A DNA stretch of 64,000 nucleotides from an uncultured Bacteroidales bacterium (GTDB taxonomy: Bacteria; Bacteroidota; Bacteroidia; Bacteroidales; Paludibacteraceae), in contig CAIWCC010000269.1 of NCBI GenBank assembly GCA_903911085.1, positions 41,149-105,148 on the forward strand, in the 5' to 3' direction. Under the pieces are notes generated by a model. The model was not told the origin of the DNA. It was given only the letters and a program-made list of their open reading frames with translations, and did no database searches. Below, piece by piece: positions 1 to 64,000 of the stretch (its first letter is position 1; the number at the start of each line of letters is the position of its first letter). The position numbers were made by a program, and so were the translations under genes.

Positions 1-5
1 AGCTG

Positions 6-2546: not shown

Positions 2547-2574
2547 GTTTTATCACACATTCAAAGTTACAAAC

Positions 2575-50865: not shown

Positions 50866-53800
50866 ATGAGAAAAATTACTTTATTATTTATTGCCATTAT
50901 TATGGCAAGTTCTTTTGCAAATGCTATAACCGGGGGCACTACAGGTTGGTACGACGATTATTTATCAATTAACGCAAATGGCTCTGGAGCAACATCATAT
51001 TGGATTGGAACTTCAGGGACAGGAACAGCACTTCAAGGTGTGAACTTTGGAAGTGTTAGTAGTTTAACTATTAATGGTTGCGATATGAAATATTGGAGCA
51101 GTAACCAAGAGAGAACAGGCGGCTCATTTTTTTACAAAATTATGTCTGCTAATGGAGCAACACAAATAGTAGCACCCGTTGAAACTATTTGGGATCAAGC
51201 AAAACTTCCTGCAGCCAATGATTATCAAGGAACAAAAGCCACTACTATAAATTTGTTAACAGGTTTAATGCCTGGTACCACTTACGAATTACATGTTTGG
51301 GCTAAACACTGGGGATCTGCACTTGGCGATAACTATCTTTCAAACTCAAATGGAAATTATAGGGCAACTTTTACCACACCTGCCGTTATGGTTACTGGTG
51401 CAAATGGTATTGCTAATGGCACTTTTTACGCTACATTAAAGGATGCTTTTGATGCAATTAATTTACAAACTGATCAAACCGGAAAAGATATTGAAATTCT
51501 AATTGGTGCTAGCACTACTGAAACTGCTTCAGCTATTCTTAACCAACCATCAGTGGCAAGCTGGAATTCCCTTAAAATTTATCCCACTAATGCTGGAGTT
51601 ACAGTAAGTGGCAATTTTGCAAATGCTTTGATTGATTTGAATGGTGCTGACAAAGTAACTATTACCGGTAAACTTAATAAAACTGGTACACCTAAATCAT
51701 TAACTTTTATGCAACAAGAGGCAACAAATTCTTTGTCAAGCACTATAAGACTAATAAACGATGCTAAAAATGACACTATTTCGTATTGTACTCTTAAAGG
51801 ATCTGTTCAATCATCTAGTTCTGTCGGTGGTATTGTATATTTCGCTACGGCATTAACAACAACGGGTACAGGAAACAGCGACAATGTTATTTCCTATAAT
51901 GACTTCACCAGAGCTGGCACGGTTAGTCCATTAAATGCAGTTTATTCAAATGGTACAAGTGCAGCTGTATTTAATTCTAAAAACACAATTGATAATAATA
52001 ATTTCTTTGGTTTATATGATGGTTTAAGTAGTCAGTATGGAGTAAAATTAGGAATAAATAATGCAGAATTTACAATTACAAATAATAGTTTTTACGAGCC
52101 AAATGAAGTAGTTCCAACAGGTACTGGTAATTACTACTCAATAAATATTGGAGCTGGTGGTCCAGGTGAAAAGTTTAATATCTCAAATAATTATATTGGT
52201 GGCAGTGAGCCCAAATGTGCTGGTTTGCCTTTTAGAAAAACAAATGCAAATTCAAATATATTTATAGGGTTATTTGTTTCAGTTTCTTCAACAGCATTAA
52301 ATAATTTCAGTGACATACAAGGAAATCATATTCAGAATATCAATTGGAAAAACAGTGCTACCAAAAAAGATTTTACCGGGATACAATCATTTGGTGGTAA
52401 CATGTATATTGGTACTACTACAGCTAATAATATTAGTGATATTGTACTTGAAAATGGTGCTATTAGTGCCTCAATTTTCTATGGTATATATGTTCAAAAT
52501 TCAACAGGATCATATACAGTACAAAACAATACCATTTCAAACATAACTATTAACAATCCAGATGGAGCTAATGGCACTAGTTTTTATGGTCTTTATAAAT
52601 CCAATTCCGCTGGTGAAGTTAACTTTAGCGATAATATAATTGGTGGTGCAACTGCCAATAGTATTAATGTAACAGGAACAAGTACTGCTAATACACAAAT
52701 AGTTGCAGGTGTTTATATGTTAACAGGAAATAATACTTCTAAAGTTACTATTTCTGGAAATACAATTCGGAATTTGAATAACAGTTCAAATAGAACTGAT
52801 GTGTTAAACTCAACCTATGGTGTTTTTTGTAGCACTGCTAATTTAAATGGAAGTATAAATAATAATAAAATTTATGGTCTTACAGCATCGAATACTACCT
52901 TGCCAGCACGTGTAATTGGTGTAAATATGGATGTAACTTCCACTTCTACTGCCATGAATTGTTATAACAATTTTATTTCATTAGGCAATTCAAATCCAGG
53001 AATTGTATATGGAATTTTACAAAATACAGGATTAGGAAAAGTTTACAACAACACTGTTTTATTAGCAGGTACTGTAACAACAGGTGCTTTTGAAAGTGCA
53101 GCTTTAAGAGGTTCTGCGGGAACAACAGCGGGAAGAGATTATAAAAATAATATTTGTTATAATACTCGATCAAATAATGGAGCTACAGGAACTCATTATG
53201 CTGTTAAAATAGAACAACTTACTGGTTTGACAATTGATGCAAATAATTATTATGTTTCAGGTACTGGTGGCGTTCTTGGTAATTTAACCACAGATTGTAG
53301 CACACTAGCTTCTTGGAAGATTGCAACTAGTCAAGATGTGAATTCAAAATCTAAAGATGTTGAATTTGTAAGCACAACAGATTTAAGTCTTACAGGCACC
53401 TCAATAAACGATGCGGAATTAGGTGTAGCTCGTTTAACCGGAGTTGTTGATAAGGATATTTCTGGCACAACTTCGCGTGCTGGTACAACTTATATGGGTG
53501 CTCACGAAGCAAGTGATTTAACTATACCTGCTCCAACAAAAACATTTACTGTTACTGTACCAAGCGGAACTTCAAAGGTTTATATTGCAGGAACATTTAC
53601 AGGTAAGAAATGGAATATCACTACTCCACATGAACTTACAGCTACTTCAAATCCAAATGAGTTTACGGGAACATTTGCTTGTACTAACGATGTAACATAT
53701 AAATATTTGTGTGATACAGGCGACTTTGCTTATCAAGCTGCTGTATCTGCAGGTGGAGCTGCTGAAGCAAATCGTACATATAATGCTGCAGACCCAGCGG

Positions 53801-54333
53801 TAGTGGCTTGGTTGAACATGAAAACTGTTACACTTAATGTTAGTTTTGCAACAGGTGTACCAACAAAATTATTTGTGAAAGGTAGTTGGGATAATTTTGC
53901 AGCACCAATTGAATTGACAAAAACTGACAATACTTTCTCAACAACTTTAAGTGGTTTACTTGCTAATAAAATTCCTAGCAATACTCAGTATAAGTATTAT
54001 ACAAATGATGAGATTGCTGATAATTGGGAATCGAATGCCGATAACTCACTTAGAAATAATCGTTGGAGCATTTTCCCAGTAATGAATGATGAAATAGCTC
54101 GCTTTACTACAGCAATTGTTTCTGGTGTTAAAAATTCTGTGGCTAATGTTCGTATTATGCCTACGGCATCAGGTATTGATGTGTTACTTAATGGACAATC
54201 AACTGTCGAATTGTTAAATGTGAATGGTGTTTTAATTGAGAAAACTGTTGCTAACGGTTTTTATTCACGCAAACTTGATCATGGCGTTTATATTATTCGA
54301 ATAGATGGTAAAGCAACTAAGTTTGTAAAATAA
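50866..54333 (+). CDS. Large T9SS cargo protein: right-handed beta-helix-like repeat region + two beta-sandwich modules + T9SS C-terminal domain
   Basis: Signal peptide. Hundreds of residues of N/G/T-rich ~22-25-aa periodic segments (NNNFFG, ITNNSFY, ISNNYIGG, IQGNHIQNI, VQNNTISNI, ISGNTIRNL, INNNKIYGL, CYNNFISLG, VYNNTVLLAG) are typical of parallel beta-helix/pectate-lyase-fold repeats. C-terminus VELLNVNGVLIEKTV...GVYIIRIDGKATKFVK. Confidence 0.7.
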   Translation: MRKITLLFIAIIMASSFANAITGGTTGWYDDYLSINANGSGATSYWIGTSGTGTALQGVNFGSVSSLTINGCDMKYWSSNQERTGGSFFYKIMSANGATQIVAPVETIWDQAKLPAANDYQGTKATTINLLTGLMPGTTYELHVWAKHWGSALGDNYLSNSNGNYRATFTTPAVMVTGANGIANGTFYATLKDAFDAINLQTDQTGKDIEILIGASTTETASAILNQPSVASWNSLKIYPTNAGVTVSGNFANALIDLNGADKVTITGKLNKTGTPKSLTFMQQEATNSLSSTIRLINDAKNDTISYCTLKGSVQSSSSVGGIVYFATALTTTGTGNSDNVISYNDFTRAGTVSPLNAVYSNGTSAAVFNSKNTIDNNNFFGLYDGLSSQYGVKLGINNAEFTITNNSFYEPNEVVPTGTGNYYSINIGAGGPGEKFNISNNYIGGSEPKCAGLPFRKTNANSNIFIGLFVSVSSTALNNFSDIQGNHIQNINWKNSATKKDFTGIQSFGGNMYIGTTTANNISDIVLENGAISASIFYGIYVQNSTGSYTVQNNTISNITINNPDGANGTSFYGLYKSNSAGEVNFSDNIIGGATANSINVTGTSTANTQIVAGVYMLTGNNTSKVTISGNTIRNLNNSSNRTDVLNSTYGVFCSTANLNGSINNNKIYGLTASNTTLPARVIGVNMDVTSTSTAMNCYNNFISLGNSNPGIVYGILQNTGLGKVYNNTVLLAGTVTTGAFESAALRGSAGTTAGRDYKNNICYNTRSNNGATGTHYAVKIEQLTGLTIDANNYYVSGTGGVLGNLTTDCSTLASWKIATSQDVNSKSKDVEFVSTTDLSLTGTSINDAELGVARLTGVVDKDISGTTSRAGTTYMGAHEASDLTIPAPTKTFTVTVPSGTSKVYIAGTFTGKKWNITTPHELTATSNPNEFTGTFACTNDVTYKYLCDTGDFAYQAAVSAGGAAEANRTYNAADPAVVAWLNMKTVTLNVSFATGVPTKLFVKGSWDNFAAPIELTKTDNTFSTTLSGLLANKIPSNTQYKYYTNDEIADNWESNADNSLRNNRWSIFPVMNDEIARFTTAIVSGVKNSVANVRIMPTASGIDVLLNGQSTVELLNVNGVLIEKTVANGFYSRKLDHGVYIIRIDGKATKFVK

Positions 54334-54430: not shown

Positions 54431-54513
54431 TTACTTAATTTTCACGATTGTAAAGATATAATATTAGATAACTTATTTCAATTCATAAATTGAATTCACA
54501 ATTTCTGTTCAAT

Positions 54514-56187
54514 ATGAAAACAACTACCCAATACTTCAATCTCAAATTTGCAGTCATTATTGCATTTATAATTGTTATTGCAAATGGATTACAAGCTACT
54601 ACTTTGTTCGAAAATTTTGATAGTCCATCTGCGGCTTCTACAAATAATACTGCAAAAGACATTACCTATCCTTCAGGTGTGTGGAATGTGTGTGCAATTA
54701 CTAAACCTACAACAGCAACAGAAAATGACAGAATAAATGGAATATATTCCATGCGAATGAGAGGATTGACGGGTCAAAATTTTATGTTTATGAAATTTGA
54801 TAAAGCAGGTGCAGGCATACTTTCGTTCAATTATGGTTCGTATAGCAATTACAGTAATGGTGAATTTACAATTCAGCAATCGACTGATGGGGGCGCAAAT
54901 TGGGTTAATGTTGGCACTCCAGTGACTGTTCCAAAATGGAGCGGAACTTTTTTAAGCTATTCATTGCCAATAAATTACAATGGAAATATTCGTTTTAAAA
55001 TTGTAGTTACTTGTCGTGCTGTCAATAACCCAAACGAACAGTTTAATATTGACGATTTTCAGATCACAGATTTTGGATCTGAGCAAACCGCCATTCCAGT
55101 TTCGTCCGTTGCTACAGGTGTTTACGAAACTCCACAAACGGTTACAATTACTTCAGCAACATCGGGTGCAACTATTTATTACACAACCGATGGAACGGCA
55201 CCTACTACTTCGTCAATGATATATTCAACTCCACTGAATGTAACAACTACTACAAAAATCAGAGCTATTGCAGTGGCAACCGGAAAAGTGGATAGTCGCG
55301 AAGAAGTCGTGCTTATTAGTTTTCCTATATCAATTAGTACTTTAGCTGAGTTTACTGCTAAATTGGCCACAACTGGAACAAATATAACTTATTTTAAATA
55401 TACTGGCGAAGCAGTTATTTCCTACTATTACACTACTTCTTCAGTAGCTGGTTATGGCACAACCATCACAAAATACGCTTTCTTGCAAGACAATACAGCC
55501 GGAGTTTCATTAAAGGACAATAATAAAGTTCTTACTAAAAATTATGCTACTGGTGATAAAATTACGGGAATTATTCTACAAGTATATAATATAAATAATA
55601 CAGTTCAAATATATCCATACGCAGATTTTACAATAGTTTCATCAAATAACATTCTAACACCTGTAGTTTCTACAATTGCAAGTATTGCCTCTAAACCATA
55701 TCAATTAGTACAGTTAAATAATGTTTTGTTTGATGGTGCAGATGGAACGAAAACTTTTGGGGTAAACAATTCAATATTTCTGAAAGAGGGTTCTAATACA
55801 GTTAGTACATTTCCACTAAGAATTCCTTCATTATTGACAATTGCACCAGATTTTCAAGGAACAATTATTCCAACAACTACAAAAAATATAGTGGGAATAG
55901 TGTCTAAATCAGAAACTAGTTTTACTGATTATTCATTATTTGTTCGAAATGCTGCAGAACTAGACCTTCAAGTATCCAGAATACAAACTTTGAGACTAAA
56001 TAATCTTTTCGTTTCAAACAATAAAGTATATTTTGAAACTTCGTCTGTTGAAAAAGTAATTGTTTATTCTATTAATGGACAGCTTGTTAAGAGCGTTAAG
56101 TCTTCGATAGGAATGAATTCTATAGAATTGAAAAATGGTGTTTATTTATTCCGCATTGGAGATAGAATTGTTAAAGTTATTTTGTAG
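54514..56187 (+). CDS. T9SS cargo protein: choice-of-anchor-J/MAM-like domain + chitobiase/hexosaminidase-C-like (FN3-associated) domain + DUF5689/OB-like region + T9SS C-terminal domain
   Basis: The ORF track start at 54490 is TTG; ATG 54514 gives the signal peptide MKTTTQYFNLKFAVIIAFIIVIANGLQA. LFENFDS...FNIDDFQITDFG is beta-sandwich-like. GVYETPQTVTITSATSGATIYYTTDGTAPTTSS is the CHB_HEX_C-like signature. YAFLQDNTAGVSL resembles the OB-like domains seen in ExeM/NucH-type proteins (from memory). C-terminus IVYSINGQLVKSV...GVYLFRIGDRIVKVIL. Confidence 0.6.
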   Translation: MKTTTQYFNLKFAVIIAFIIVIANGLQATTLFENFDSPSAASTNNTAKDITYPSGVWNVCAITKPTTATENDRINGIYSMRMRGLTGQNFMFMKFDKAGAGILSFNYGSYSNYSNGEFTIQQSTDGGANWVNVGTPVTVPKWSGTFLSYSLPINYNGNIRFKIVVTCRAVNNPNEQFNIDDFQITDFGSEQTAIPVSSVATGVYETPQTVTITSATSGATIYYTTDGTAPTTSSMIYSTPLNVTTTTKIRAIAVATGKVDSREEVVLISFPISISTLAEFTAKLATTGTNITYFKYTGEAVISYYYTTSSVAGYGTTITKYAFLQDNTAGVSLKDNNKVLTKNYATGDKITGIILQVYNINNTVQIYPYADFTIVSSNNILTPVVSTIASIASKPYQLVQLNNVLFDGADGTKTFGVNNSIFLKEGSNTVSTFPLRIPSLLTIAPDFQGTIIPTTTKNIVGIVSKSETSFTDYSLFVRNAAELDLQVSRIQTLRLNNLFVSNNKVYFETSSVEKVIVYSINGQLVKSVKSSIGMNSIELKNGVYLFRIGDRIVKVIL

Positions 56188-56269
56188 TATTTAGTATGTT
56201 TTTTGTTTGTAGACGAATAAATTTGTCAATAAATAGCTGTGCTTTTGTTTTATCAAAAAAAAGGATATT

Positions 56270-59065
56270 GTGTATTTCAAACATTTCATTCATTTTTCAG
56301 TAATAATCTTGTTGCTTATCTTTACTACAGAAGCTACGAGTCAGAATACCACGACTAAACGCGATGTCTACAGTGTGAGTATTTCAGTTTTGGATAGTTT
56401 AACGGGCGAAAAAATAGTTGGTGCGCCATGTCAGATTAAAAGTCAAGGAGTATTTGCAGTAACCGATGGTAATGGTTTGGCTGTATTTAAGAATCTGCGC
56501 AAAGGAGAAACTTTGATTGATATTTCGTACCTTGGTTACGAATCTGTTTCAAGAATGATAAATGTAAAAGCGGATTTGATTTTAAAAATCAAAATTGTAG
56601 CTACATCATTACAACTCAAAGAAGTGAGTGTGGTGGCAAAAAGTAGTGCTGCAGGTTCTTCTACCTCGTCCCTAATTAGTAGGCAAGCTATTGAACACTT
56701 GCAAGCCACCAACTTAGGCGATTTGATGCAATTGCTGCCAGGAGCTACTATGCAAACACCCGACCTCACCGTAGCAAGCAGTTTACAAATTAGAAATGCT
56801 TCGAATGCCGGTTTCGACAAAAATAATTCATTTGGTGCTTCAATTATTGTAGATGGTGTGCCTGTTTCGAACAATGCAAATATTGATTCAAAGTTGGGTG
56901 GAAATAATAATACTGCTGGTCAGGGTATCGACTTGCGACAAATTTCGGCAGACAATATAGAGTCGGTTGAGGTTATAAGAGGAATACCATCGGCCGAATA
57001 TGGCGATTTAACTTCGGGAGCAGTAATTGTAAAATCTAAATCGGGTAAAACTCCTTATGAAATTCGCACCAAAGTAAATCCAACTACCATTAACACTTCG
57101 TTTGGGAAAGGTTTTTCGTTTGGTGAAAAATCAGGTTTTTTAAATACAAATTTTGATTATGTACAAGCTTGGGGTGACCCTCGAAAAAAAACGGAATCGT
57201 TCGATCGGTATTCAGTTTCGCTTAATTACAGCAATACTTTTTTTAAAAAATGGAAAACAAACACCAAATTTAATTATAGTGGTTTAATTGATTGGACTGG
57301 ACAGGACGCAGATGCTTTATTAGAAGGTACTGAGGATAAGCAAACAAATAACAATTTCAAAATCAGTCACGATGGGAAAATTGCACTTAATTTACCTTGG
57401 ATGCGTACACTTTCTTATGTAATTGGCTATTCTACACAAATAAGTGAATCGCATAAAATAGCGAAAATTGCTGCAGATGGTTTCAAGCCCATTATTTCAT
57501 CGCTCGAAACAGGTTATTTTGAAGTGCCATATAAAACTGTATCTTACTATGGAAGTGGAGGCGTTAAAAGTAATCCTCAGGACTTGTTTTTCAAAGTTTC
57601 GAACAGTTTTGGATTCAAATTACTTGATACGTGGACAAATCAAATTGGAATGGGAGTAGAATACCGTTATGAACAAAATAAAGCGCAGGGCTACTACAAC
57701 GATGATTCATTATTGCCTTTAAAAACAAACGAAGATGGACGCCCTCGACCTTACTATGATATACCGCCCATTAATCAGTTTTCTGCTTATCTAGAAGATA
57801 AAATGACATGGAAAATGCTTGGAATGAAAACAAATTTGAGTGCCGGATTGAGATTTAATATGTTACAACCTGGTAAAGAGGAACAAGTTTCGGCATTATC
57901 GCCACGTATTAACGCATCTGTTGAATTATCAAAAAATATATATCTTAGATTAGGATATGGAAAAAATGCCAAAACTCCTGGTTTGACTCATTTATATCCC
58001 GAAAAAAAATACATCGATAGAATTGCTGCCAATACTGCATATCAGCCAAATATTGCGGAACGAATGGTATTGTATAATACTATGGTGTACGATGTACAAC
58101 GTAGCATTGGACTAAAAAATGCTATTAACACAAAATATGAGATAGGGTTTGATATAAAATTACCTCAAGATCGTAGCATCAATATTGTGGCTTTTCAAGA
58201 TATTACTCCCAACGGCTTTGGATCAAATTCTGAATACTTCACCTATCTGGCTGATTATTATGCAATTGACAATGGCTTAAAATACATTGCAAATGATAAA
58301 CCGGTTCTTGATCCATCCACCTCACCCACCAGAGTTGATACTGTTTATGCTACTAAAGGTTTGTTTGGAAATACCGAGTGGTCGCGAAATAGGGGAATTG
58401 AATTAGAAATTAATTTAGGACGGTCTTATTTCTTGAATACATCATTCTATTTTAGTACTGCTTACTCCGAAACAAGTTCGAAATCGGTTGGAACAGAATA
58501 TTCTAACCCTAAAAGAGAATCATCGATAAAATGGAAAAACTATTTTTATGATAGCAATACTCCACCTTTTAAATACATATATAATAGTGGAACTCAAGTT
58601 AATTATTATAGCAGTTTAAACTCTACTTTTAGAGCTGTAACAAATATACCTGCTCTAAAGATGGTAATGTCTAATACCGTTTTTGTAAGTTTTTCAACTG
58701 CTACTTGGGAATCTAATGATTTGAAAGTACCTATAGGATATATTGTTGCTAATCAAACAGGTGGATTTGATAGTTATCAGATTACCCAAGAAATGTTAGA
58801 CAATAAAGAAACAAAAATAAAAGAACATCCTTTGTCTGAAGGTATTATTAACAATGCAGACAAAATACCTACCAGATCTGATGTACCAATTTGGAATATA
58901 TCGACCCGATTGACGAAGGAAATTTCGAAAGTGGCCGGATTTTCGTTTTTTGTAAATAACACTTTGTTCTATGAACCTTGGCTGCATTCTTCAACATCTA
59001 CAACTTTAACACAACGAAACACTGGAACTTTTAGCTTTGGGATGGAGTTATTCTTGAAATTATAA
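56270..59065 (+). CDS. TonB-dependent receptor (not SusC/SusD-paired)
   Basis: GTG start. Signal MYFKHFIHFSVIILLLIFTTEATSQ. Carboxypeptidase-regulatory-like VSISVLDSLTGEKIVGAPCQI...LIDISYLGYES. Plug segments LGDLMQLLPG and IESVEVIRGIPSAEYGDLTSGAVIVKSKSG. Long barrel region. Confidence 0.8.
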   Translation: MYFKHFIHFSVIILLLIFTTEATSQNTTTKRDVYSVSISVLDSLTGEKIVGAPCQIKSQGVFAVTDGNGLAVFKNLRKGETLIDISYLGYESVSRMINVKADLILKIKIVATSLQLKEVSVVAKSSAAGSSTSSLISRQAIEHLQATNLGDLMQLLPGATMQTPDLTVASSLQIRNASNAGFDKNNSFGASIIVDGVPVSNNANIDSKLGGNNNTAGQGIDLRQISADNIESVEVIRGIPSAEYGDLTSGAVIVKSKSGKTPYEIRTKVNPTTINTSFGKGFSFGEKSGFLNTNFDYVQAWGDPRKKTESFDRYSVSLNYSNTFFKKWKTNTKFNYSGLIDWTGQDADALLEGTEDKQTNNNFKISHDGKIALNLPWMRTLSYVIGYSTQISESHKIAKIAADGFKPIISSLETGYFEVPYKTVSYYGSGGVKSNPQDLFFKVSNSFGFKLLDTWTNQIGMGVEYRYEQNKAQGYYNDDSLLPLKTNEDGRPRPYYDIPPINQFSAYLEDKMTWKMLGMKTNLSAGLRFNMLQPGKEEQVSALSPRINASVELSKNIYLRLGYGKNAKTPGLTHLYPEKKYIDRIAANTAYQPNIAERMVLYNTMVYDVQRSIGLKNAINTKYEIGFDIKLPQDRSINIVAFQDITPNGFGSNSEYFTYLADYYAIDNGLKYIANDKPVLDPSTSPTRVDTVYATKGLFGNTEWSRNRGIELEINLGRSYFLNTSFYFSTAYSETSSKSVGTEYSNPKRESSIKWKNYFYDSNTPPFKYIYNSGTQVNYYSSLNSTFRAVTNIPALKMVMSNTVFVSFSTATWESNDLKVPIGYIVANQTGGFDSYQITQEMLDNKETKIKEHPLSEGIINNADKIPTRSDVPIWNISTRLTKEISKVAGFSFFVNNTLFYEPWLHSSTSTTLTQRNTGTFSFGMELFLKL

Positions 59066-59101
59066 GTTTTAATATTGTACTTTTTTTTAAGATAAAATGA
59101 A

Positions 59102-60334
59102 ATGAAAAAAAATAGTTATTTACTTCATCTTACTGTTATTGTCTGTTTCTTTGAGATGATAACGAGTTGTGTGGATAGCCAGAAACTTCCACTTGTATCG
59201 GCATATACAGTTCAGGTTACTATGCCAGACGAAATGAAAGATAGTTATTTGTATGTAAATCATATTGTTACATTGAGAAGTCAGCGGATTACTTATACAT
59301 CATACACCAATGAAAATGGTGTTGCCAAATTCGAAAATATTATTCCGGATATTTATGATGTTTACACATCATGGGATATTACAGGTGAAGAATATGTGAA
59401 CATGAGTGATTCTCTCGTAGAAAACAAACCGGCACTTATTTCAGCAATTATGCCGTTAAATAATATATTTTCAGACAGTACTATTAATCTTAAAACATTG
59501 TTAACTCTAAAGCAAAGTTTGCTAATAAGTAAAGTGTACGCTTCAGGTACCCGCGATTTGAATAACGCTGCTTATACTGTTGATGGTTATGTTGAAATAT
59601 TCAACAACTCCGACGAAACTCAATACATTGATGGTATTTATTTGGCGCTTGTAGAAGGAGATTCTCCCATAGCTTTTGCTGCTAAGGATAATCCGACAAA
59701 TATTCATGCACGCCAGGTTTTTCAATTTCCAGGCAATGGTAAAGATTATCCTATATTGCCAGGTAAGAGCATTGTGGCTTGTAATAGTGCAATTGACCAT
59801 ACAGCCAATGCTACAAATACTGTAAATCTGCAACAAGCTGATTTTGAATTTAAAACAATAGCATCTAAACCAACTAACAACCCCGCAATAACCGCAATGA
59901 CTTTGATTCAAACAAGTTATGTTGGATTAAATAATTTGAATTTACAAAGAAGTTCGGTTAATGGCATTTGTTTATTTAAAACAACCGATAATGTGGGTAC
60001 ATATACTTTGGATTATCCTCCAGGAAAAACATCGGGTAACAAATTTTTACGAATACCCGCAAAATATGTGTTCGATGGTGTTGAAATTCTTGCTTATCGA
60101 AGCACAGGTGTTGATCCAAATTCAAAACGATTTCAGAATTTTATTGATGCAGGTTACAAAACAATCTCCTCTACATCTGGTTATACGCATGAAAGTATTG
60201 AACGTAAGGTAGATACCAAAAGGTCTAACATTGTTAGAGTATATTTAATTGACACTAATAATAGTCAGAATGATATGGTAACAATAACTGACCCAACACA
60301 AAAGAAATACGATAAAACTTTATTATTGCAGTAA
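59102..60334 (+). CDS. DUF4876-like surface lipoprotein with lamin-tail-domain (LTD)-like segment
   Basis: Lipoprotein signal (FFEMITSCVDS). N-terminal Ig/CarboxypepD-like segment (VNHIVTLRS...TNENGVAKFENIIPDIYDVY). LLISKVYASG...DGYVEIFNNSDETQYIDGIYLAL fits the LTD pattern (INE-like...E-F/Y-hydrophobic-E-L/I-x-N...hydrophobic-D-L/I-x-G). The DUF number is from memory. Confidence 0.5.
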   Translation: MKKNSYLLHLTVIVCFFEMITSCVDSQKLPLVSAYTVQVTMPDEMKDSYLYVNHIVTLRSQRITYTSYTNENGVAKFENIIPDIYDVYTSWDITGEEYVNMSDSLVENKPALISAIMPLNNIFSDSTINLKTLLTLKQSLLISKVYASGTRDLNNAAYTVDGYVEIFNNSDETQYIDGIYLALVEGDSPIAFAAKDNPTNIHARQVFQFPGNGKDYPILPGKSIVACNSAIDHTANATNTVNLQQADFEFKTIASKPTNNPAITAMTLIQTSYVGLNNLNLQRSSVNGICLFKTTDNVGTYTLDYPPGKTSGNKFLRIPAKYVFDGVEILAYRSTGVDPNSKRFQNFIDAGYKTISSTSGYTHESIERKVDTKRSNIVRVYLIDTNNSQNDMVTITDPTQKKYDKTLLLQ

Positions 60335-60376
60335 AAATGCAGAAAACTGCTTGGCGTATTAAACAAAATAAGAATT

Positions 60377-61978
60377 ATGCAAAGATATTTTAACACACTG
60401 TTCTTTTTAATTTTATACATACCACTTACGGCACAAATTGGTTACAATTCTGAGCAACTAGAACTACATAAACTCACAAACAATTGGTTAAATACCGACA
60501 ATGCTGCTGGTTTAGGTTTTATTAATTTTCATCAACATGGAAATTCAGAATTGGGCTACAGCAACGAAAGTGGTAATTTGCATCGAGCTCAGGAAGGTGA
60601 TGGAAAAAATGGAATTCGTTTTTTCTCTGAACGATTTGATAAAATTGATAAAAACTGGATGTCGTGGGGAAGTTTCGAATTTAGAATGAATACTGAAGAA
60701 AACCGTACATGGTCAAATGCATTTCATACCTATAACAATTCGCCTTATCTTTTTGGAGATAGTATTCCTGGACGATATGATCAACAGACTTTTGACCTTC
60801 GAGCAAAGATTTGTCGAAAAATAAATGAAAAATGGAGTTTTGGGGTAAATTTTGATTATTATGCAGGCGATATGTCGCGACTTCGCGACGGCCGTACACG
60901 TACTTTTATTGCTGATTATGCCATTGCTCCCGGAACAGTATTTAAGATTAATGGCTCAAATATCTTTGGCACTACACTGGGATTTCGTTTTGAAAAGGAA
61001 AAAATGCCGTCGGTAATAACTGTTCAAGCCAATCCTGAAATTAACTATTTCTTTTTTCTAGGCAATGAAAATGCTAATGCGGTGAAGAATGCTTATTTAG
61101 GTTTCGACAGACAGTTTGTAAGCAGAGAATTATTTGCAGAACTACAATATAATTTTGTAAATAAACAACTTGATTGGTTTACAACTTTAGGATTTACATC
61201 CCGCCAACAACAGGTGCTTGGCGGTGAACGAGAAAGTCCTGGAGAATTTCAGTCCCAAAACGTGCGTTTTAACTCTAAAGCAAATGTGTTTTTAAATAAA
61301 AAATTACTTATAATTGATTTAAAATCAAATTATCAATTTGGTACGGCTAACGAATTTCTGCAAGAGCTTGTAATAACCAGAGACACTATTAATCACGATG
61401 TTTCAAAAAGATGGAACACCCTTTATATCTATAAAAATAGATATTCATCAAATTCTTACAATGCACGTTTAAATATAAGTTTGCGTAATCTGCTTAATGA
61501 CGGTAAAGATTATTCATGGATGGCAGCTATTGATGGAACATTTTATGGATTCAGCAACAGTTACCAGTTGCCCTATTCGGTTTTCGAATCGCAACGTTTG
61601 CGTTTTGGTACAAATGCTGGAGTACGTGTTTTGAATAAAAAGGGACATCGAATAAGTCTCACTGCAAAAGGTGGATTTGGTTTTGGATTGAACAATAAAC
61701 TGGAATTAAACAGTATTGCAAATGCCACTCCAAACTTAGGTTCGAGTACCTTTGAAAAAGCAACTTTCAAAATTGCGAATGAAATTATGAAGCCTGATTT
61801 AGAATTTTATAAGCAAAATGTAATTGACTATGGTGTTGATGCGCTTTATAGTTTTCCACTTAAGTCAAAAAAAAGCAATTTTGTTGGACAAACTAAAGTG
61901 TTTTATAACAATCAGATTAGTGGAACTTTAGGCTCATGGCGCATGTTCGGCTTCTCGCTTGGACTTATTACCTTGTAA
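60377..61978 (+). CDS. DUF6850-like outer-membrane beta-barrel protein
   Basis: Signal MQRYFNTLFFLILYIPLTAQ. 533 aa with alternating hydrophobic beta-strand pattern and many aromatic-girdle residues. It follows the DUF4876-like gene, as I recall for this family. The family name is from memory. Confidence 0.45.
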   Translation: MQRYFNTLFFLILYIPLTAQIGYNSEQLELHKLTNNWLNTDNAAGLGFINFHQHGNSELGYSNESGNLHRAQEGDGKNGIRFFSERFDKIDKNWMSWGSFEFRMNTEENRTWSNAFHTYNNSPYLFGDSIPGRYDQQTFDLRAKICRKINEKWSFGVNFDYYAGDMSRLRDGRTRTFIADYAIAPGTVFKINGSNIFGTTLGFRFEKEKMPSVITVQANPEINYFFFLGNENANAVKNAYLGFDRQFVSRELFAELQYNFVNKQLDWFTTLGFTSRQQQVLGGERESPGEFQSQNVRFNSKANVFLNKKLLIIDLKSNYQFGTANEFLQELVITRDTINHDVSKRWNTLYIYKNRYSSNSYNARLNISLRNLLNDGKDYSWMAAIDGTFYGFSNSYQLPYSVFESQRLRFGTNAGVRVLNKKGHRISLTAKGGFGFGLNNKLELNSIANATPNLGSSTFEKATFKIANEIMKPDLEFYKQNVIDYGVDALYSFPLKSKKSNFVGQTKVFYNNQISGTLGSWRMFGFSLGLITL

Positions 61979-62020: not shown

Positions 62021-64000
62021 ATGACAAATAAAACATTTATTATCTGCGCATTAGTTGCGTTTACTACATTTGCCACCGCACAACGAAAGAAGATTGATGC
62101 TGGTGAAAATCAAGATAAAGTAACCAGTCAAACCGATAGTGCTCAAACCCCAAAAACCAAAGATTTCTCGAAAATAACTGCGGGAGCAAAACTTAGTTCA
62201 GGACTTTTCAATATTTACAAAACAAAAACGGGAACTTACTACTTTGAAATTCCGGATTCGTTGTTGGGTCGACCAATGTTGATTGCCGCCAGAGTGGTGA
62301 ATATCAGTGATAATAACAAAATATCCGCTGGTCAGATGCGGAGCAATCCCATACTAATATCATTTTCGAGGCGCGATAAGTTTTTGTTTATGCATCAGCC
62401 TACTGGTACTTCATACGCCAATGCCAACGATCCGATAGCGACATCACTTGCTCGAAATAATATGATGCCTATAGTTATGTCGTTCGATATCACAAGCCGC
62501 AACGCTACAAATGATGCTTCGTTGATAGATGTTACCAAGCTATTTTCGGCTGAAGTGGATTTGGTTTTTCCTGCGGGAATTGGCAATACGGGCCGATTGG
62601 ACACTAAAGCAAGTCAAATAATCGATATGAAATCGTTTCCTCAAAACGTCGAAATTAAATCGTTTTATAATTATTCGGGTGGGAGAGAGCCATTTTGTAC
62701 AACCATCAATTATTCCTTTGTGTTGTTACCAAAAACTCCAATGAAAACTCGTTTTGCCGACGATAGAATTGGTTATAGTTCCGAAAATAAACGTAAATAT
62801 GAATCAGAAAAGCCAGTTGTTAATCAAAAGATAATTGATCGTTGGCGCATTGAACCTCGTCCTGTAGATATTGCAAAATTTAGAAAAGGAGAATTGGTAG
62901 TGCCTCAAAAACAGATTGTTATATATGTTGATACCGTAATGCCCGAAGTGTGGCGCAAATATGTTCGTCAAGGTATCGAAGACTGGAATATTGCATTCAA
63001 AGAAATTGGTTTTAAGCAAGTTATCATTGCAAAAGATTATCCACGCGACCCAAATTTCGATTCGGAGGATATTCGTAATACTTGTTTTAGATACATAACT
63101 TCTACCGATGCAAATGCCTCTGGACCACAGTGGATTGACCCACGAAGTGGTGAAATTATTCAGGGCGATATACTTTGGTGGCATAATGTGATAGATTTGT
63201 TGCAGACTTGGAAGTTTGTGCAAACCGCAGCAGTAGACCCCGAAGCACGAAAAAAAGTGTTAGACGAAAAAATTATGGGAGAAACCATACGATATGCTGT
63301 TGCTCATGAAACTGGTCATGTATTTGGATTACAGCATAATATGCGAGGTTCGTATGCTTTGCCTACGGATTCATTGCGGTCGCCAGCGTTTACTAAAAAA
63401 TATGGTACCACTGCCAGTATAATGGATTATGCTCGTTTCAATTATGTGGCTCAGCCAGGTGATAAAGAAAAAGGCGTGAAACTTACTCCTCCGGTAATGG
63501 GACCTTATGATTTGTTTTCAATAAAATTTGGTTATTTGCCTATATATGAGGCCAAAACACCCGAAGAAGAACTTCCTGTGTTGAATAAATGGTTTTTAGA
63601 AAAAGGCAATAATCCATTGTTTTTATATGCGCCAGCTGTAATTTCGCCTGTGGCACCCGATCCATCTTCGCAAACCGAAGCATTGGGAAATGACATCATA
63701 AAATCAGGACAATATGGCATTGCTAATCTTAAAGTTATTACTAAAAATTTATTGAAATGGACTGTAAATGACGGTGATAACTATGATTTGCTCAATAAAC
63801 GATTTGATGGTATAAGCAAATTGTACACTCGGTTGGTTACTTTGCCAATTTCCTACCTTGGTGGAATATATACTTTTTCGGGCACTGTTGGTCAATTTCC
63901 AGCCAATTATCTTCCTGTCGAAAAATCGAAACAGCAAGAAACAATTCGATTTGTGGTAAGTGAAATTACTAACTGCGATTGGCTGATTCAACCAGACTTA
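62021..64000 (+). CDS. Secreted zinc-dependent metalloprotease (DUF5117/DUF5118/DUF4953-type), 3'-partial at window end
   Basis: Not in the ORF track because no stop is reached. ATG 62021 (MTNKTFIICALVAFTTFATAQ signal) is open for all 660 codons to position 64000. HExxH motif AVAHETGHVFGLQHNMRGS (nt 63305-63319 encode HETGH). TASIMDYARFNYVAQPGD is typical of this family. Confidence 0.8.
   Translation, partial: MTNKTFIICALVAFTTFATAQRKKIDAGENQDKVTSQTDSAQTPKTKDFSKITAGAKLSSGLFNIYKTKTGTYYFEIPDSLLGRPMLIAARVVNISDNNKISAGQMRSNPILISFSRRDKFLFMHQPTGTSYANANDPIATSLARNNMMPIVMSFDITSRNATNDASLIDVTKLFSAEVDLVFPAGIGNTGRLDTKASQIIDMKSFPQNVEIKSFYNYSGGREPFCTTINYSFVLLPKTPMKTRFADDRIGYSSENKRKYESEKPVVNQKIIDRWRIEPRPVDIAKFRKGELVVPQKQIVIYVDTVMPEVWRKYVRQGIEDWNIAFKEIGFKQVIIAKDYPRDPNFDSEDIRNTCFRYITSTDANASGPQWIDPRSGEIIQGDILWWHNVIDLLQTWKFVQTAAVDPEARKKVLDEKIMGETIRYAVAHETGHVFGLQHNMRGSYALPTDSLRSPAFTKKYGTTASIMDYARFNYVAQPGDKEKGVKLTPPVMGPYDLFSIKFGYLPIYEAKTPEEELPVLNKWFLEKGNNPLFLYAPAVISPVAPDPSSQTEALGNDIIKSGQYGIANLKVITKNLLKWTVNDGDNYDLLNKRFDGISKLYTRLVTLPISYLGGIYTFSGTVGQFPANYLPVEKSKQQETIRFVVSEITNCDWLIQPDL

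What the first reader, a model, noticed from the sequence alone, without database searches (positions are those of the whole stretch)
56270..61978. Non-Sus outer-membrane uptake module: TonB-dependent receptor + DUF4876-like lipoprotein + DUF6850-like second barrel
Seen: a 931-aa TonB-dependent receptor is followed, at 36- and 42-nt gaps on the same strand, by two genes and not by a SusD-like gene. The first encodes a 410-aa lipoprotein (lipobox ITSC). The second encodes a 533-aa signal-peptide protein with a beta-barrel-like strand pattern. Established: characterised Bacteroidota TonB systems pair the transporter with a SusD-like lid, or with HmuY or other dedicated lipoproteins. I am not aware of any functional characterisation of the DUF4876/DUF6850 partnership. 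My family names are from memory of NCBI annotations. Inference: this is a three-component outer-membrane machine of unknown substrate, with receptor, surface binder and an accessory barrel (a possible porin, a lipoprotein-export partner or a second channel). It is a good candidate for an undescribed uptake system.
Basis: partly seen in the sequence, partly recalled or inferred. Interest (0 to 1): 0.7.

Follow-up and report, generated by a model that had tools for sequence, protein, structure and literature searches.

The report
TonB transporter, lid, extra barrel, proteases
A Paludibacter-like bacterium carries a strictly conserved outer-membrane trio (TonB-dependent transporter, surface lipoprotein, second barrel of unknown role) that sits in one operon with two periplasmic proteases, so it most likely imports peptides or small proteins for digestion; the second barrel has never been studied.

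Summary
Three same-strand genes (56270-61978) encode a non-SusC TonB-dependent transporter (TBDT), a DUF4876 lipoprotein and a DUF6850 protein that AlphaFold2 models as a confident ~18-stranded barrel. No SusD-like gene is nearby.

The TBDT-DUF4876 pairing is not new: a 2023 preprint proposes it as a transporter plus non-SusD lid, and a family member (BT_1938) has a crystal structure. No paper in the searched library mentions DUF6850.

In 43 genomes of different species the triad is invariant, and it extends to the BT1939/BT1938-type Bacteroides locus.

In the window's clade the triad is only the front of a tightly packed operon. It continues with a signal-peptide-only metzincin (DUF5118/5117/4953; window 62021 to the end) and a DPP11-type S46 dipeptidyl-peptidase just beyond the window.

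Best reading: a Bacteroidota "protease-associated import system" for peptides or small proteins, perhaps acidic ones. The barrel's role is unresolved: docking partner, exporter of the lid, or second channel. I rate it a new variant of known kinds, with moderately high interest.

The parts
50866..54333 (+). 1155-aa secreted protein with a probable T9SS C-terminal tail and a weak CBM48-like (AMPK1_CBM) match. It is a clade-specific accessory gene upstream of the core, not part of the invariant unit.
   Evidence: ORF. Weak AMPK1_CBM match. The C-terminus ...NGVYIIRIDGKATKFVK resembles a T9SS tail. It co-occurs with the triad only in Paludibacter-like loci: L001, L005, L006, L015, L044/45.
54490..56187 (+). 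565-aa T9SS-tailed surface protein with CHB_HEX_C_1/Fn3_assoc and DUF5689 domains. It is a clade-specific accessory gene and a possible surface capture protein.
   Evidence: Pfam. Por_Secre_tail TIGR04183 at E 2e-4. Present upstream of the TBDT in 8 loci including the window.
56218..56225 (+). Candidate Bacteroidota -7 promoter element (TAAATTTG) in the 82-nt gap before the TBDT.
   Evidence: and the sequence. The motif is not enriched overall in the window (115 found against 105 expected), so this is weak. No such motif and no terminator-like hairpin lies in the 36-, 42- and 42-nt gaps downstream.
56270..59065 (+). TonB-dependent transporter outside the SusC family. It has an N-terminal CarboxypepD_reg-like domain, a candidate TonB box (LKEVSVVA), a plug (residues 131-252) and about 679 aa of barrel.
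   Evidence: Only the plug resembles solved TBDTs, and there is no TIGR04056 hit. Relatives in the ECF/FecR-type loci carry an extra STN signalling domain.
59102..60334 (+). DUF4876 surface lipoprotein, the putative lid. It has an N-terminal Ig-like domain, a weak LTD-like middle part and a C-terminal DUF4876 domain.
   Evidence: Pfam. Lipobox followed by acidic residues at +2 to +4 across 51 homologs. AF2 model with pLDDT 87.6. The top PDB fold hit is 4Q1Z (BT_1938) at E 1e-22 and TM 0.6. The profile hit to 4q1z has E 5e-37.
60377..61978 (+). DUF6850 outer-membrane beta-barrel with about 18 long strands. Short N-terminal helices lie at residues 25-48 and a long helix at residues 458-479 lies in a loop. 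Several loop motifs are conserved.
   Evidence: Pfam. AF2 pLDDT 88.2 and pTM 0.83. No close PDB fold (TM <= 0.38) and no PDB sequence hit. It always follows DUF4876, with a median gap of 6 nt. The family has about 2,200 clusters at 50% identity.
62021..64000 (+). Zinc metalloprotease (DUF5118 + DUF5117 + DUF4953 Met-zincin), truncated by the window end. It is 805 aa on the source contig. The HETGHVFGLQH motif lies at 63305-63337. It has a type-I signal peptide, no lipobox and no T9SS tail, so it is probably periplasmic.
   Evidence: Pfam. Full gene on L048/L049, followed 11 nt later by a 728-aa Peptidase_S46. HExxHxxGxxH is present in 38/38 orthologues. Signal peptides and C-termini.

Best explanation
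The three genes are the outer-membrane front end of a five-gene, probably single-transcript nutrient-scavenging operon: TBDT, DUF4876, DUF6850, metzincin, then a DPP11-type S46 peptidase.

Proposed mechanism, in steps:
1. The DUF4876 lipoprotein is flipped to the cell surface and sits on the extracellular face of the TBDT as a non-SusD lid that helps capture substrate. The homology is shown; the function is inferred.
2. In the window's clade, two T9SS-anchored surface proteins encoded upstream may help capture substrate. In the ECF/FecR clade a Calx-beta surface lipoprotein may do this instead.
3. The TBDT uses TonB energy to import an oligopeptide or a small protein.
4. In the periplasm the metzincin endopeptidase cuts the imported substrate, and the DPP11-type S46 exopeptidase releases dipeptides with Asp/Glu at P1. 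These are taken up across the inner membrane.
5. The DUF6850 barrel is an obligate partner of the DUF4876/TBDT pair. Most likely it is a docking or co-receptor barrel that completes the surface complex. Less likely, it is needed to deploy the lipoprotein.

Relatives with an ECF sigma factor, a FecR anti-sigma factor and an STN domain on the TBDT would also use the transporter as a substrate sensor.
For: Shown:
- The ORFs and their domain content.
- The triad is invariant in order and strand in 43 species-level genomes: DUF4876 40/40 and TBDT 32/32. Three further loci found from DUF4876 instead of DUF6850 show the same.
- The metzincin follows in 29/29 assessable loci and S46 in 27/27. This includes the window's own contig.
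- Median gaps are 12, 6, about 10, 3 and 14 nt, and no terminator-like sites lie in the window's gaps.
- Catalytic motifs are intact: HExxHxxGxxH in 38/38 metzincins, and the serine motif plus 'NFDR' in 31/31 S46 enzymes.
- The nearest solved S46 relatives are named 'Asp/Glu-specific dipeptidyl-peptidase'.
- Sorting signals: DUF4876 and Calx-beta are lipoproteins with acidic export-signal-like residues. The metzincin and S46 have only type-I signal peptides and no T9SS tail.
- The barrel is confidently modelled, and the lipoprotein is homologous to BT_1938.
- Recurrent flanking genes point to amino-acid metabolism: Asparaginase_2 plus two Glu/Asp-type SDF symporters (6 loci), SNF symporters, and glutamine synthetase III.

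From the literature:
- DUF4876 is proposed as a lid that contacts the outer face of its TBDT (10.1101/2023.03.17.533168).
- TBDT import followed by periplasmic proteolysis has precedent in Fus and YddB-PqqL (PMC6042079, PMC6793856).
- Peptide import by a lidded Bacteroidota TBDT has precedent in RagAB (10.1101/755678).
Against: - There are no expression, binding or genetic data for this locus.
- A second branch of the DUF6850 family (Pedobacter, a Bacteroides species, others) keeps the triad but replaces the proteases with one to three ~730-aa HEAT-like proteins. Peptide import therefore cannot be the function of every triad.
- DUF4876 loci in B. thetaiotaomicron and P. gingivalis are induced by iron or hemin starvation (PMC10434189, PMC10470040).
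- Price et al. argue that alternative-lid TBDTs take small substrates, and they found no phenotype for BT1938/BT1939 in 519 conditions.
- Periplasmic location of the metzincin is inferred only from the absence of other sorting signals.
- The upstream T9SS proteins carry glycan-binding-like modules (CBM48-like, CHB_HEX_C), which hints at a glycosylated or non-protein ligand.
- Nothing here tests physical contact among the three outer-membrane proteins.
Confidence: 0.5

Rival explanations
1. Fus-like cofactor piracy. The triad imports a small folded metalloprotein or cofactor-bearing protein. The periplasmic metzincin and S46 destroy it to release iron, heme or another cofactor, rather than to harvest amino acids.
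For: - DUF4876/TBDT loci respond strongly to iron or hemin limitation in P. gingivalis (20-214x) and B. thetaiotaomicron.
- ECF sigma, FecR and an STN-bearing TBDT occur in 14/22 assessable loci, as in Fec-type iron systems.
- Fus and PqqL set the precedent for a TBDT with a periplasmic metalloprotease.
- A small FMN_bind protein follows S46 in 8 loci.
Against: - None of about 50 loci contains a PepSY/FoxB-type reductase, heme-handling genes, Feo or a metal ABC importer.
- The recurrent extra neighbours are amino-acid transporters, Asparaginase_2 and GS-III.
- A dipeptidyl exopeptidase is not needed merely to release a cofactor.
- The iron-regulated DUF4876 loci are different subfamilies. BT3633-25 has no gene annotated as DUF6850.
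Confidence: 0.15
2. The DUF6850 barrel is a dedicated exporter or assembly factor for the DUF4876 lipoprotein. It would act like Slam for TbpB or HxuB for HxuA, and would not take part in substrate passage. The TBDT and lid then act as an ordinary two-component importer.
For: - DUF6850 always directly follows DUF4876, with the tightest spacing in the operon (median 6 nt, often overlapping).
- The pairing survives even where the downstream genes change completely.
- Proteobacterial precedents exist for a TBDT with a surface binder and a dedicated barrel (own knowledge: TbpA/TbpB/Slam1 and HxuCBA).
- Some DUF4876 proteins in the HEAT branch have basic rather than acidic residues after the Cys (CKKKNE, CKKSGS). 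These are poor matches to the general export signal.
Against: - Most DUF4876 proteins in the window's clade have export-signal-like acidic residues, so the general Bacteroidota pathway should suffice.
- By its published annotation, B. thetaiotaomicron BT3633-BT3631 has DUF4876 lids without any DUF6850.
- DUF6850 has no periplasmic TPR or POTRA domain and no DUF560 or Omp85 signature.
Confidence: 0.22
3. Small-molecule uptake, for example of a metallophore, vitamin or amino acid, by a TBDT-lid pair. The proteases would be co-located for regulatory or historical reasons only, and DUF6850 would be a substrate-specific diffusion channel.
For: - All alternative-lid TBDTs with known substrates take small ligands.
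- The HEAT branch lacks proteases.
- The conserved charged residues R168, D171, R173 and K207 and the conserved loops of DUF6850 would suit a specific channel.
Against: - Metzincin (29/29) and S46 (27/27) are retained with 3-14-nt gaps, down to about 32% identity of the barrel and across several Bacteroidales families. That is hard to explain without functional coupling.
- The TBDT barrel region (about 679 aa after the plug) is longer than the ~569-aa median reported for lid-associated TBDTs.
Confidence: 0.1

Closest known systems
BT1939/BT1938-type 'alternative lid' TBDT systems (Price, Deutschbauer and Arkin 2023 preprint; PDB 4Q1Z)
   Same: Both have a non-SusC TBDT followed on the same strand by a DUF4876 lipoprotein. 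The window's lipoprotein is a structural homologue of BT_1938 (Foldseek E 1e-22, TM 0.6). In a Bacteroides locus whose DUF4876 is nearly identical to BT_1938 (771 bits over 398 aa), the next gene is a DUF6850 barrel. The published pair therefore belongs to the same triad.
   Different: The lipoproteins share only 22% identity. The Bacteroides-type locus continues with three HEAT-like proteins rather than a metzincin and S46. The preprint never mentions the third barrel. The window's version also has two T9SS-tailed proteins upstream.
RagAB / SusCD-type peptide importer of Porphyromonas gingivalis, with periplasmic DPPs
   Same: Both are Bacteroidota systems with a TonB-dependent barrel capped by a surface lipoprotein. 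Import of oligopeptides is followed by periplasmic S46-type dipeptidyl-peptidases (10.1101/755678; the role of the DPPs is from my own knowledge).
   Different: The TBDT is not in the SusC/RagA family and the lid is not SusD/RagB-like. An extra barrel is present. The proteases are encoded in the same operon.
Protease-associated import systems (Fus: FusA/FusB/FusC; YddB-PqqL)
   Same: Both couple a TBDT genetically to a signal-peptide-bearing metalloprotease that processes the imported cargo in the periplasm (PMC6042079, PMC6793856).
   Different: Fus-type systems are described only in Proteobacteria. They use a FusA-family TBDT, an M16 protease, a dedicated TonB homologue and iron regulation. 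They have no lipoprotein lid, no second barrel and no S46. None of the components here is homologous to theirs.
TbpA/TbpB/Slam1 and HxuC/HxuB/HxuA (my own knowledge, not tested here)
   Same: Both follow a three-part logic: a TBDT, a surface or secreted substrate binder, and a second outer-membrane barrel encoded alongside.
   Different: Slam is a DUF560 14-stranded barrel with a periplasmic TPR domain. HxuB is an Omp85/TpsB barrel with POTRA domains. DUF6850 has about 18 strands, no periplasmic domain and no sequence relation to either.
FadL / OmpP1 / PorV-like barrels
   Same: Both have a barrel preceded by a short helical N-terminal segment. DUF6850's nearly invariant N-A-A-G-L recalls the FadL 'NPA' hatch motif (from memory). 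FadL and TodX appear among the fold hits, and there is a weak FilD OmpP1/FadL hit (E 0.002).
   Different: TM-scores are only 0.26-0.37. DUF6850 has about 18 strands rather than 14. There is no sequence-level signal: the profile against PDB gave zero hits, and no Toluene_X or PorP_SprF match appeared in 35 members at E <= 10.

Membership tests
SusCD-type (PUL-like) transporter pair | [quoted passage not shown] | tested here: not met
   The NCBIfam scan at E <= 0.01 lists only weak plug-level hits to siderophore-receptor models and no SusC/RagA model.
SusCD-type (PUL-like) transporter pair | An adjacent SusD/RagB-like lipoprotein | tested here: not met
   The neighbours are DUF4876, DUF6850, DUF5689 and a metzincin. 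The only SusD-like gene in the window is 42 kb away with its own SusC.
TBDT + DUF4876 'alternative lid' systems | [quoted passage not shown] | tested here: met
   PF16215 scores 82.5 bits against a cutoff of 27.9, and the gap is 36 nt. The arrangement is conserved in 40/40 loci.
TBDT + DUF4876 'alternative lid' systems | Lipobox and a surface-export signal | tested here: inconclusive
   The lipobox ITSC is clear. The window has C-VDSQK, with a single acidic residue. Close homologues have CVDDQK, CKEEQM and CTREEP, and D/E predominate at +2 to +4. No scoring matrix was applied and there are no localisation data.
TBDT + DUF4876 'alternative lid' systems | Fold shared with BT_1938 (4Q1Z) | tested here: met
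   Foldseek E 1.4e-22, TM 0.59/0.61. Profile hit E 4.9e-37.
TBDT + DUF4876 'alternative lid' systems | The lipoprotein contacts the extracellular face of its TBDT | not testable with these tools
   No multimer prediction was available. It needs AlphaFold-Multimer/AF3 or co-purification.
DUF6850 (PF21012) outer-membrane barrel family | Full-length match above the Pfam gathering score | tested here: met
   230.9 bits against a cutoff of 27, covering residues 43-530 and profile positions 1-462 of 464.
DUF6850 (PF21012) outer-membrane barrel family | Beta-barrel architecture with a signal peptide | tested here: met
   AF2 pLDDT 88.2 and pTM 0.83, with about 18 long strands. A type-I signal peptide is conserved in homologues.
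Protease-associated import systems (Fus/PAIS) | FusA/YddB-family TBDT | tested here: not met
   The PDB sequence search finds only plug-level similarity to PfeA and no FusA or YddB.
Protease-associated import systems (Fus/PAIS) | Co-encoded periplasmic M16 (FusC/PqqL-type) protease | tested here: not met
   The operon's proteases are a DUF4953 metzincin and an S46 serine peptidase. An M16 peptidase exists in the window at 30180-32990 but it is 26 kb away and unlinked.
Protease-associated import systems (Fus/PAIS) | Iron-dependent expression and release of iron from the cargo | not testable with these tools
   This needs transcriptomics and growth assays.
Slam / type 11 secretion (DUF560) | DUF560 14-stranded barrel with an N-terminal periplasmic TPR domain | tested here: not met
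   No DUF560 or TPR hit was found in the window protein or in 35 family members at E <= 10. The model shows about 18 strands and only about 30 N-terminal non-barrel residues.
FadL/OmpP1 (Toluene_X) family | Sequence membership (PF03349) and a 14-stranded barrel with an N-terminal hatch | tested here: not met
   No PF03349 hit and no PDB sequence hit. Fold similarity is only generic (TM <= 0.37).
S46 dipeptidyl-peptidase, DPP11 subtype (gene just beyond the window, L049:9673-11859) | Peptidase_S46 fold, the catalytic Ser motif, and Arg at the PgDPP11 Arg673-equivalent S1 position | tested here: met
   PF10459 scores about 621 bits in orthologues. The best PDB matches are named 'Asp/Glu-specific dipeptidyl-peptidase'. 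'NFDR' follows the Ser motif in 31/31 enzymes. The meaning of Arg673 comes from the literature (my own knowledge).

The most novel reading that the evidence does not exclude
DUF6850 is a new class of accessory outer-membrane barrel with about 2,200 sequence clusters across Bacteroidota. On this reading it is an integral subunit of TBDT/DUF4876 complexes. It either deploys the lid at the surface or closes the ~20 A side opening reported for DUF4876-lidded transporters. That would let the complex import whole small, perhaps acidic, proteins, which are then dismantled by a dedicated periplasmic metzincin and DPP11 pair. The result would be a Bacteroidota-wide protein-import machine unrelated in its parts to Fus or SusCD.
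Probability: 0.2. Interest if true: 0.85.

Novelty: new variant of a known kind. Interest (0 to 1): 0.62.

Why it matters
Bacteroidota dominate gut, sediment and digester communities, largely through their TonB-dependent uptake machines. Almost all mechanistic knowledge concerns SusCD pairs. This work gives three things:

- A widespread, strictly conserved third outer-membrane component that no paper in the searched library discusses. It also belongs to a locus (BT1939/BT1938) in the genetically tractable B. thetaiotaomicron.
- A concrete substrate hypothesis for one large clade: peptides or proteins, with an acidic bias suggested by the DPP11-type enzyme.
- A possible handle on two open questions: how Bacteroidota deploy or organise surface lipoproteins, and whether whole-protein import with periplasmic proteolysis exists outside Proteobacteria.

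If the barrel proves to be only a passive neighbour, the result is still a useful annotation upgrade for five gene families now labelled DUF.

Tried and rejected
1. SusD partner elsewhere: rejected. The only SusD-like gene belongs to an alpha-glucan locus 42 kb away.
2. Metzincin as a T9SS surface enzyme: rejected. Its C-termini look helical (...HYKLILNLIEKYTK) and are unlike the T9SS tails of the two upstream proteins. There was no Por_Secre_tail hit.
3. DUF6850 as a FadL, PorP or Slam relative: not supported at sequence level. The fold hits are generic barrels with TM <= 0.38. I keep this only as a weak lead based on the N-terminal NAAGL motif.
4. Literature on DUF6850, DUF4953/5117/5118, BT1937 and 'protein/peptide utilization locus': zero relevant papers.
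5. Sigma-70 promoter and terminator scans, and the TAnnTTTG motif count: no enrichment over shuffles. These are used only descriptively.
6. Rfam scan of the whole window: nothing found.
7. An error of mine. In one search the downstream-protease query was translated one base out of frame (62022 instead of 62021). The 'dnMP' hits of that call are meaningless. The conservation figures come from de novo ORF clustering and Pfam.
8. Solved relatives of the two upstream proteins and of the metzincin: none found.
9. P0174 (Chitinophaga): no context could be retrieved.

Full report
**1. The observation**

The ORF list shows three same-strand genes exactly as described:
- 56270-59065: 931 aa from a GTG start.
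- 59102-60334: 410 aa, N-terminus MKKNSYLLHLTVIVCFFEMITSC, lipobox ITSC.
- 60377-61978: 533 aa, signal peptide ending ...PLTAQ.

The gaps between them are 36 and 42 nt. Public gene calls on the same contig start the first gene 13 codons later, giving 918 aa. The GTG start gives the more convincing signal peptide.

The first protein has CarbopepD_reg_2 and Plug domains. The second matches DUF4876 (PF16215, E 5e-23), with weak Ig-like and Lamin-Tail-Domain matches before it. The third matches DUF6850 (PF21012, E 5e-68) over nearly its whole length.

NCBIfam gives the TBDT only weak, plug-level hits to siderophore-receptor models and no SusC/RagA hit. The sole SusD-like gene of the window (12049-13728, minus strand) is paired with its own SusC-like gene inside an alpha-glucan utilisation locus 42 kb away.

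**2. The third protein is a barrel**

I built a 37-sequence alignment of homologues. AlphaFold2 gave a confident model with mean pLDDT 88.2 and pTM 0.83. It has about 18 long beta-strands from residue 54 to the C-terminus, three short N-terminal helices (residues 25-48) and a 22-residue helix in a late loop.

Foldseek against the PDB returns only generic barrel similarity with TM-scores of 0.26-0.38. The hits are TBDT barrels, FadL/TodX and FadL-like BAM accessory subunits. A family profile finds no PDB sequence at E <= 10. A permissive Pfam scan of 35 members finds nothing but DUF6850. NCBI labels the family 'DUF6850 family outer membrane beta-barrel protein'. An exhaustive profile search counts about 2,200 representative clusters at 50% identity, of which 1,636 have E <= 1e-10. 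This is a large family with no solved relative.

**3. Conservation of the triad**

A scan of one genome per species returned 43 loci. They come from Paludibacter, Phocaeicola, Rikenellaceae, Muribaculaceae, Tenuifilaceae, Fermentimonas and many unnamed Bacteroidales, with barrel identity down to 32%.

Comparing the window's proteins with all ORFs and clustering ORFs de novo show TBDT, then DUF4876, then DUF6850, in the same order and strand, wherever the contig reaches. DUF4876 is present in 40/40 assessable loci and the TBDT in 32/32. Three loci found from DUF4876 homologues instead of DUF6850 show the same arrangement.

A distant branch of the family (about 20% identity; Pedobacter, a Bacteroides species and other members) also keeps the triad.

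**4. Link to published work**

Price, Deutschbauer and Arkin (bioRxiv 10.1101/2023.03.17.533168) proposed DUF4876 lipoproteins BT1938 and BT3632 as non-SusD lids of TBDTs BT1939 and BT3633. Their evidence was AlphaFold-Multimer contacts and conserved proximity in 59-81 genera. They found no mutant phenotype, and they do not mention a third barrel.

My model of the window's lipoprotein (pLDDT 87.6) has one strong PDB match, 4Q1Z. That is the crystal structure of BT_1938 (E 1e-22, TM 0.6, 22% identity).

In locus L051 the DUF4876 protein scores 771 bits against the 4Q1Z chain over 398 residues and is nearly identical to it. Its signal peptide almost matches the corrected BT1938 N-terminus quoted in the preprint. 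The gene immediately downstream is a DUF6850 barrel whose cluster is named from 'uncultured Bacteroides sp.'. The published pair is therefore, by strong inference, part of the same triad.

No paper in the searched library mentions DUF6850 or BT1937.

**5. The unit is larger than three genes**

The window's next gene starts at 62021, after another 42-nt gap, and runs off the window. It is a DUF5118 + DUF5117 + DUF4953 'Met-zincin' with HETGHVFGLQH at 63305-63337.

On the source contig this gene is 805 aa. It is followed 11 nt later by a 728-aa Peptidase_S46.

Across the 43 genomes the metzincin follows the barrel in 29/29 assessable loci. It follows either directly or after one ~500-aa Calx-beta lipoprotein. 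The S46 follows in 27/27. Median gaps along the block are 12, 6, about 10, 3 and 14 nt. In the window no terminator-like hairpin or Bacteroidota -7 motif lies in the internal gaps, whereas a TAAATTTG lies 45 nt upstream of the TBDT start. This motif evidence is weak.

The catalytic motifs are intact. HExxHxxGxxH is present in 38/38 metzincins. The serine motif followed by 'NFDR' is present in 31/31 S46 enzymes.

The closest solved S46 relatives are named 'Asp/Glu-specific dipeptidyl-peptidase' (DPP11). The Arg of NFDR aligns with the Arg of PgDPP11 in that alignment. From my own knowledge of the DPP7/DPP11 literature, that residue is Arg673, which sets the Asp/Glu preference at P1.

**6. Where the parts sit (inference from sorting signals)**

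- DUF4876 homologues have a lipobox followed mostly by acidic residues at +2 to +4. This resembles the Bacteroidota lipoprotein export signal. The window's own signal, C-VDSQK, is weak.
- The Calx-beta protein has a strong signal (C-EKIDE and similar).
- The barrel, the metzincin and the S46 have type-I signal peptides only.
- The metzincin has no T9SS tail, whereas both upstream proteins end in typical T9SS tails.

The resulting layout is as follows. On the surface are DUF4876, plus the Calx-beta lipoprotein or the two T9SS-anchored proteins. In the outer membrane are the TBDT and DUF6850. In the periplasm are the metzincin and S46.

**7. Regulation and context**

Of 22 loci with enough upstream sequence, 14 have an ECF sigma factor and a FecR anti-sigma factor, and their TBDT carries an STN domain. 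Four have the window's pair of T9SS proteins instead, and four have something else.

After the S46, six loci carry Asparaginase_2 and two Glu/Asp-type SDF symporters. Two carry SNF amino-acid symporters. Several have glutamine synthetase III nearby. Eight have a small FMN_bind protein.

None of the roughly 50 loci shows PepSY/FoxB reductases, heme-processing genes or metal ABC importers.

**8. Best explanation**

The triad is the outer-membrane front of a protease-associated TonB-dependent import operon for peptides or small proteins. DUF4876 acts as the lid and binder and the TBDT as the energised gate. The metzincin cuts the cargo in the periplasm, and the DPP11-type S46 produces dipeptides, with a bias toward acidic substrates.

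- Shown: the gene content, its conservation, the intact catalytic motifs, the sorting signals, the barrel fold and the homology to BT_1938.
- Inferred: the substrate class, the lid contact, the periplasmic location, the single transcript and any contact involving DUF6850.

I put this at about 0.5.

**9. The barrel's role is the real unknown**

Its constant position directly after DUF4876 holds even where the downstream genes change from proteases to HEAT-like proteins. Several conserved motifs fall in what should be extracellular loops. Both points argue for a partnership with the lipoprotein or the TBDT surface.

- Docking or co-receptor subunit. This fits the ~20 A side opening that Price et al. 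report for DUF4876-lidded TBDTs. That link is speculation.
- Slam- or HxuB-like exporter. This fits the tight gene coupling and the poor export signals of some HEAT-branch lipoproteins. It is weakened by the export-signal-like sequences in the window's clade. It is also weakened by DUF4876 loci such as BT3633-BT3631, which by published annotation have no DUF6850.
- Diffusion channel. This remains possible.

**10. Rival substrate readings**

DUF4876/TBDT loci in P. gingivalis and B. thetaiotaomicron are induced by iron or hemin starvation (PMC10434189, PMC10470040). ECF/FecR/STN control is classic for iron systems. The Fus and YddB-PqqL systems show that a TBDT can import a whole protein for periplasmic proteolysis to free iron (PMC6042079, PMC6793856).

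A Fus-like cofactor-piracy function is therefore a serious rival (about 0.15). Against it stand the lack of any metal-handling genes and the amino-acid-metabolism neighbours. A small-molecule importer with incidental proteases gets about 0.1.

**11. Comparison and novelty**

The system works like RagAB plus periplasmic DPPs, and like Fus. It is a member of neither, because it has no SusC/SusD and no FusA/M16. The PAIS paper describes Fus-related clusters only in Proteobacteria and never mentions lipoproteins or S46.

It is a member of the DUF4876 alternative-lid class. This work extends that class in two ways. It adds an obligate DUF6850 barrel, and it adds, in one large clade, a dedicated protease module.

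I rate it a new variant of known kinds. Interest is about 0.6. The truly new and testable pieces are the barrel and the protease linkage.

**12. Caveats**

- The genome scan was seeded from the window's clade. The proportion of protease-type to HEAT-type loci across the whole family is therefore unknown.
- The strand count is read from DSSP only.
- The query for the downstream protease was out of frame, and its hits are disregarded.
- No multimer prediction or expression data were available.

Noticed in passing
window 41239-45138 (-): A 1299-aa T9SS-tailed multidomain protein. It combines a Peptidase_M6 (InhA-like) catalytic domain, a CBM48-like module, an esterase domain and Por_Secre_tail. 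It could be an extracellular protease that supplies peptides.
   Followed up: no
window 45507-47951 (-): An 814-aa TonB-dependent-receptor-like protein (OMP_b-brl_3 + Plug + CarboxypepD_reg). No lipoprotein partner is evident beside it.
   Followed up: no
window 5268-28553: An alpha-glucan (starch/glycogen) utilisation region. It holds a T9SS-tailed alpha-amylase with CBM48, a T9SS-tailed GH57, a SusD/SusC pair, an MFS transporter, a GH65 phosphorylase, a cyclomaltodextrinase and another amylase with a CBM48-like module. The same CBM48-like module recurs weakly in the 1155-aa protein upstream of the triad.
   Followed up: partly
window 30180-32990 (+): A 936-aa M16 peptidase, about the size of the PqqL/FusC-type periplasmic proteases of protease-associated import systems. 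It is not adjacent to a TBDT here.
   Followed up: no
window 1-4257: GC content is 0.43-0.455 against about 0.33 elsewhere. The region holds two large ORFs (846 and 574 aa) with no Pfam match at E <= 1e-5 and no Rfam family. It may be foreign or otherwise unusual DNA.
   Followed up: partly
L051 10590-17203; L053 10598-12853; L050 3814-6024: In the other branch of the DUF6850 family the triad is followed by one to three paralogous ~725-750-aa proteins. They have type-I signal peptides and weak HEAT_2 repeats, and no HExxH or CxxCH motifs. Their function is unknown, and they take the place of the proteases.
   Followed up: partly
L043 9890-11470 and downstream: DUF6850, the metzincin and the S46 are each split into two or three ORFs in this locus. 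Either the operon is decaying or these are assembly frameshifts.
   Followed up: no
L020 (whole locus): The record is labelled Candidatus Cloacimonadota, but its gene order and N-terminal protein sequences are nearly the same as those of the Bacteroidales locus L019. This is probably a binning error rather than a cross-phylum occurrence.
   Followed up: no
L001 16152-16694 and 7 other loci: A ~180-aa FMN_bind-domain protein directly follows the S46 gene in eight loci. It is unexplained and might hint at a redox step.
   Followed up: no
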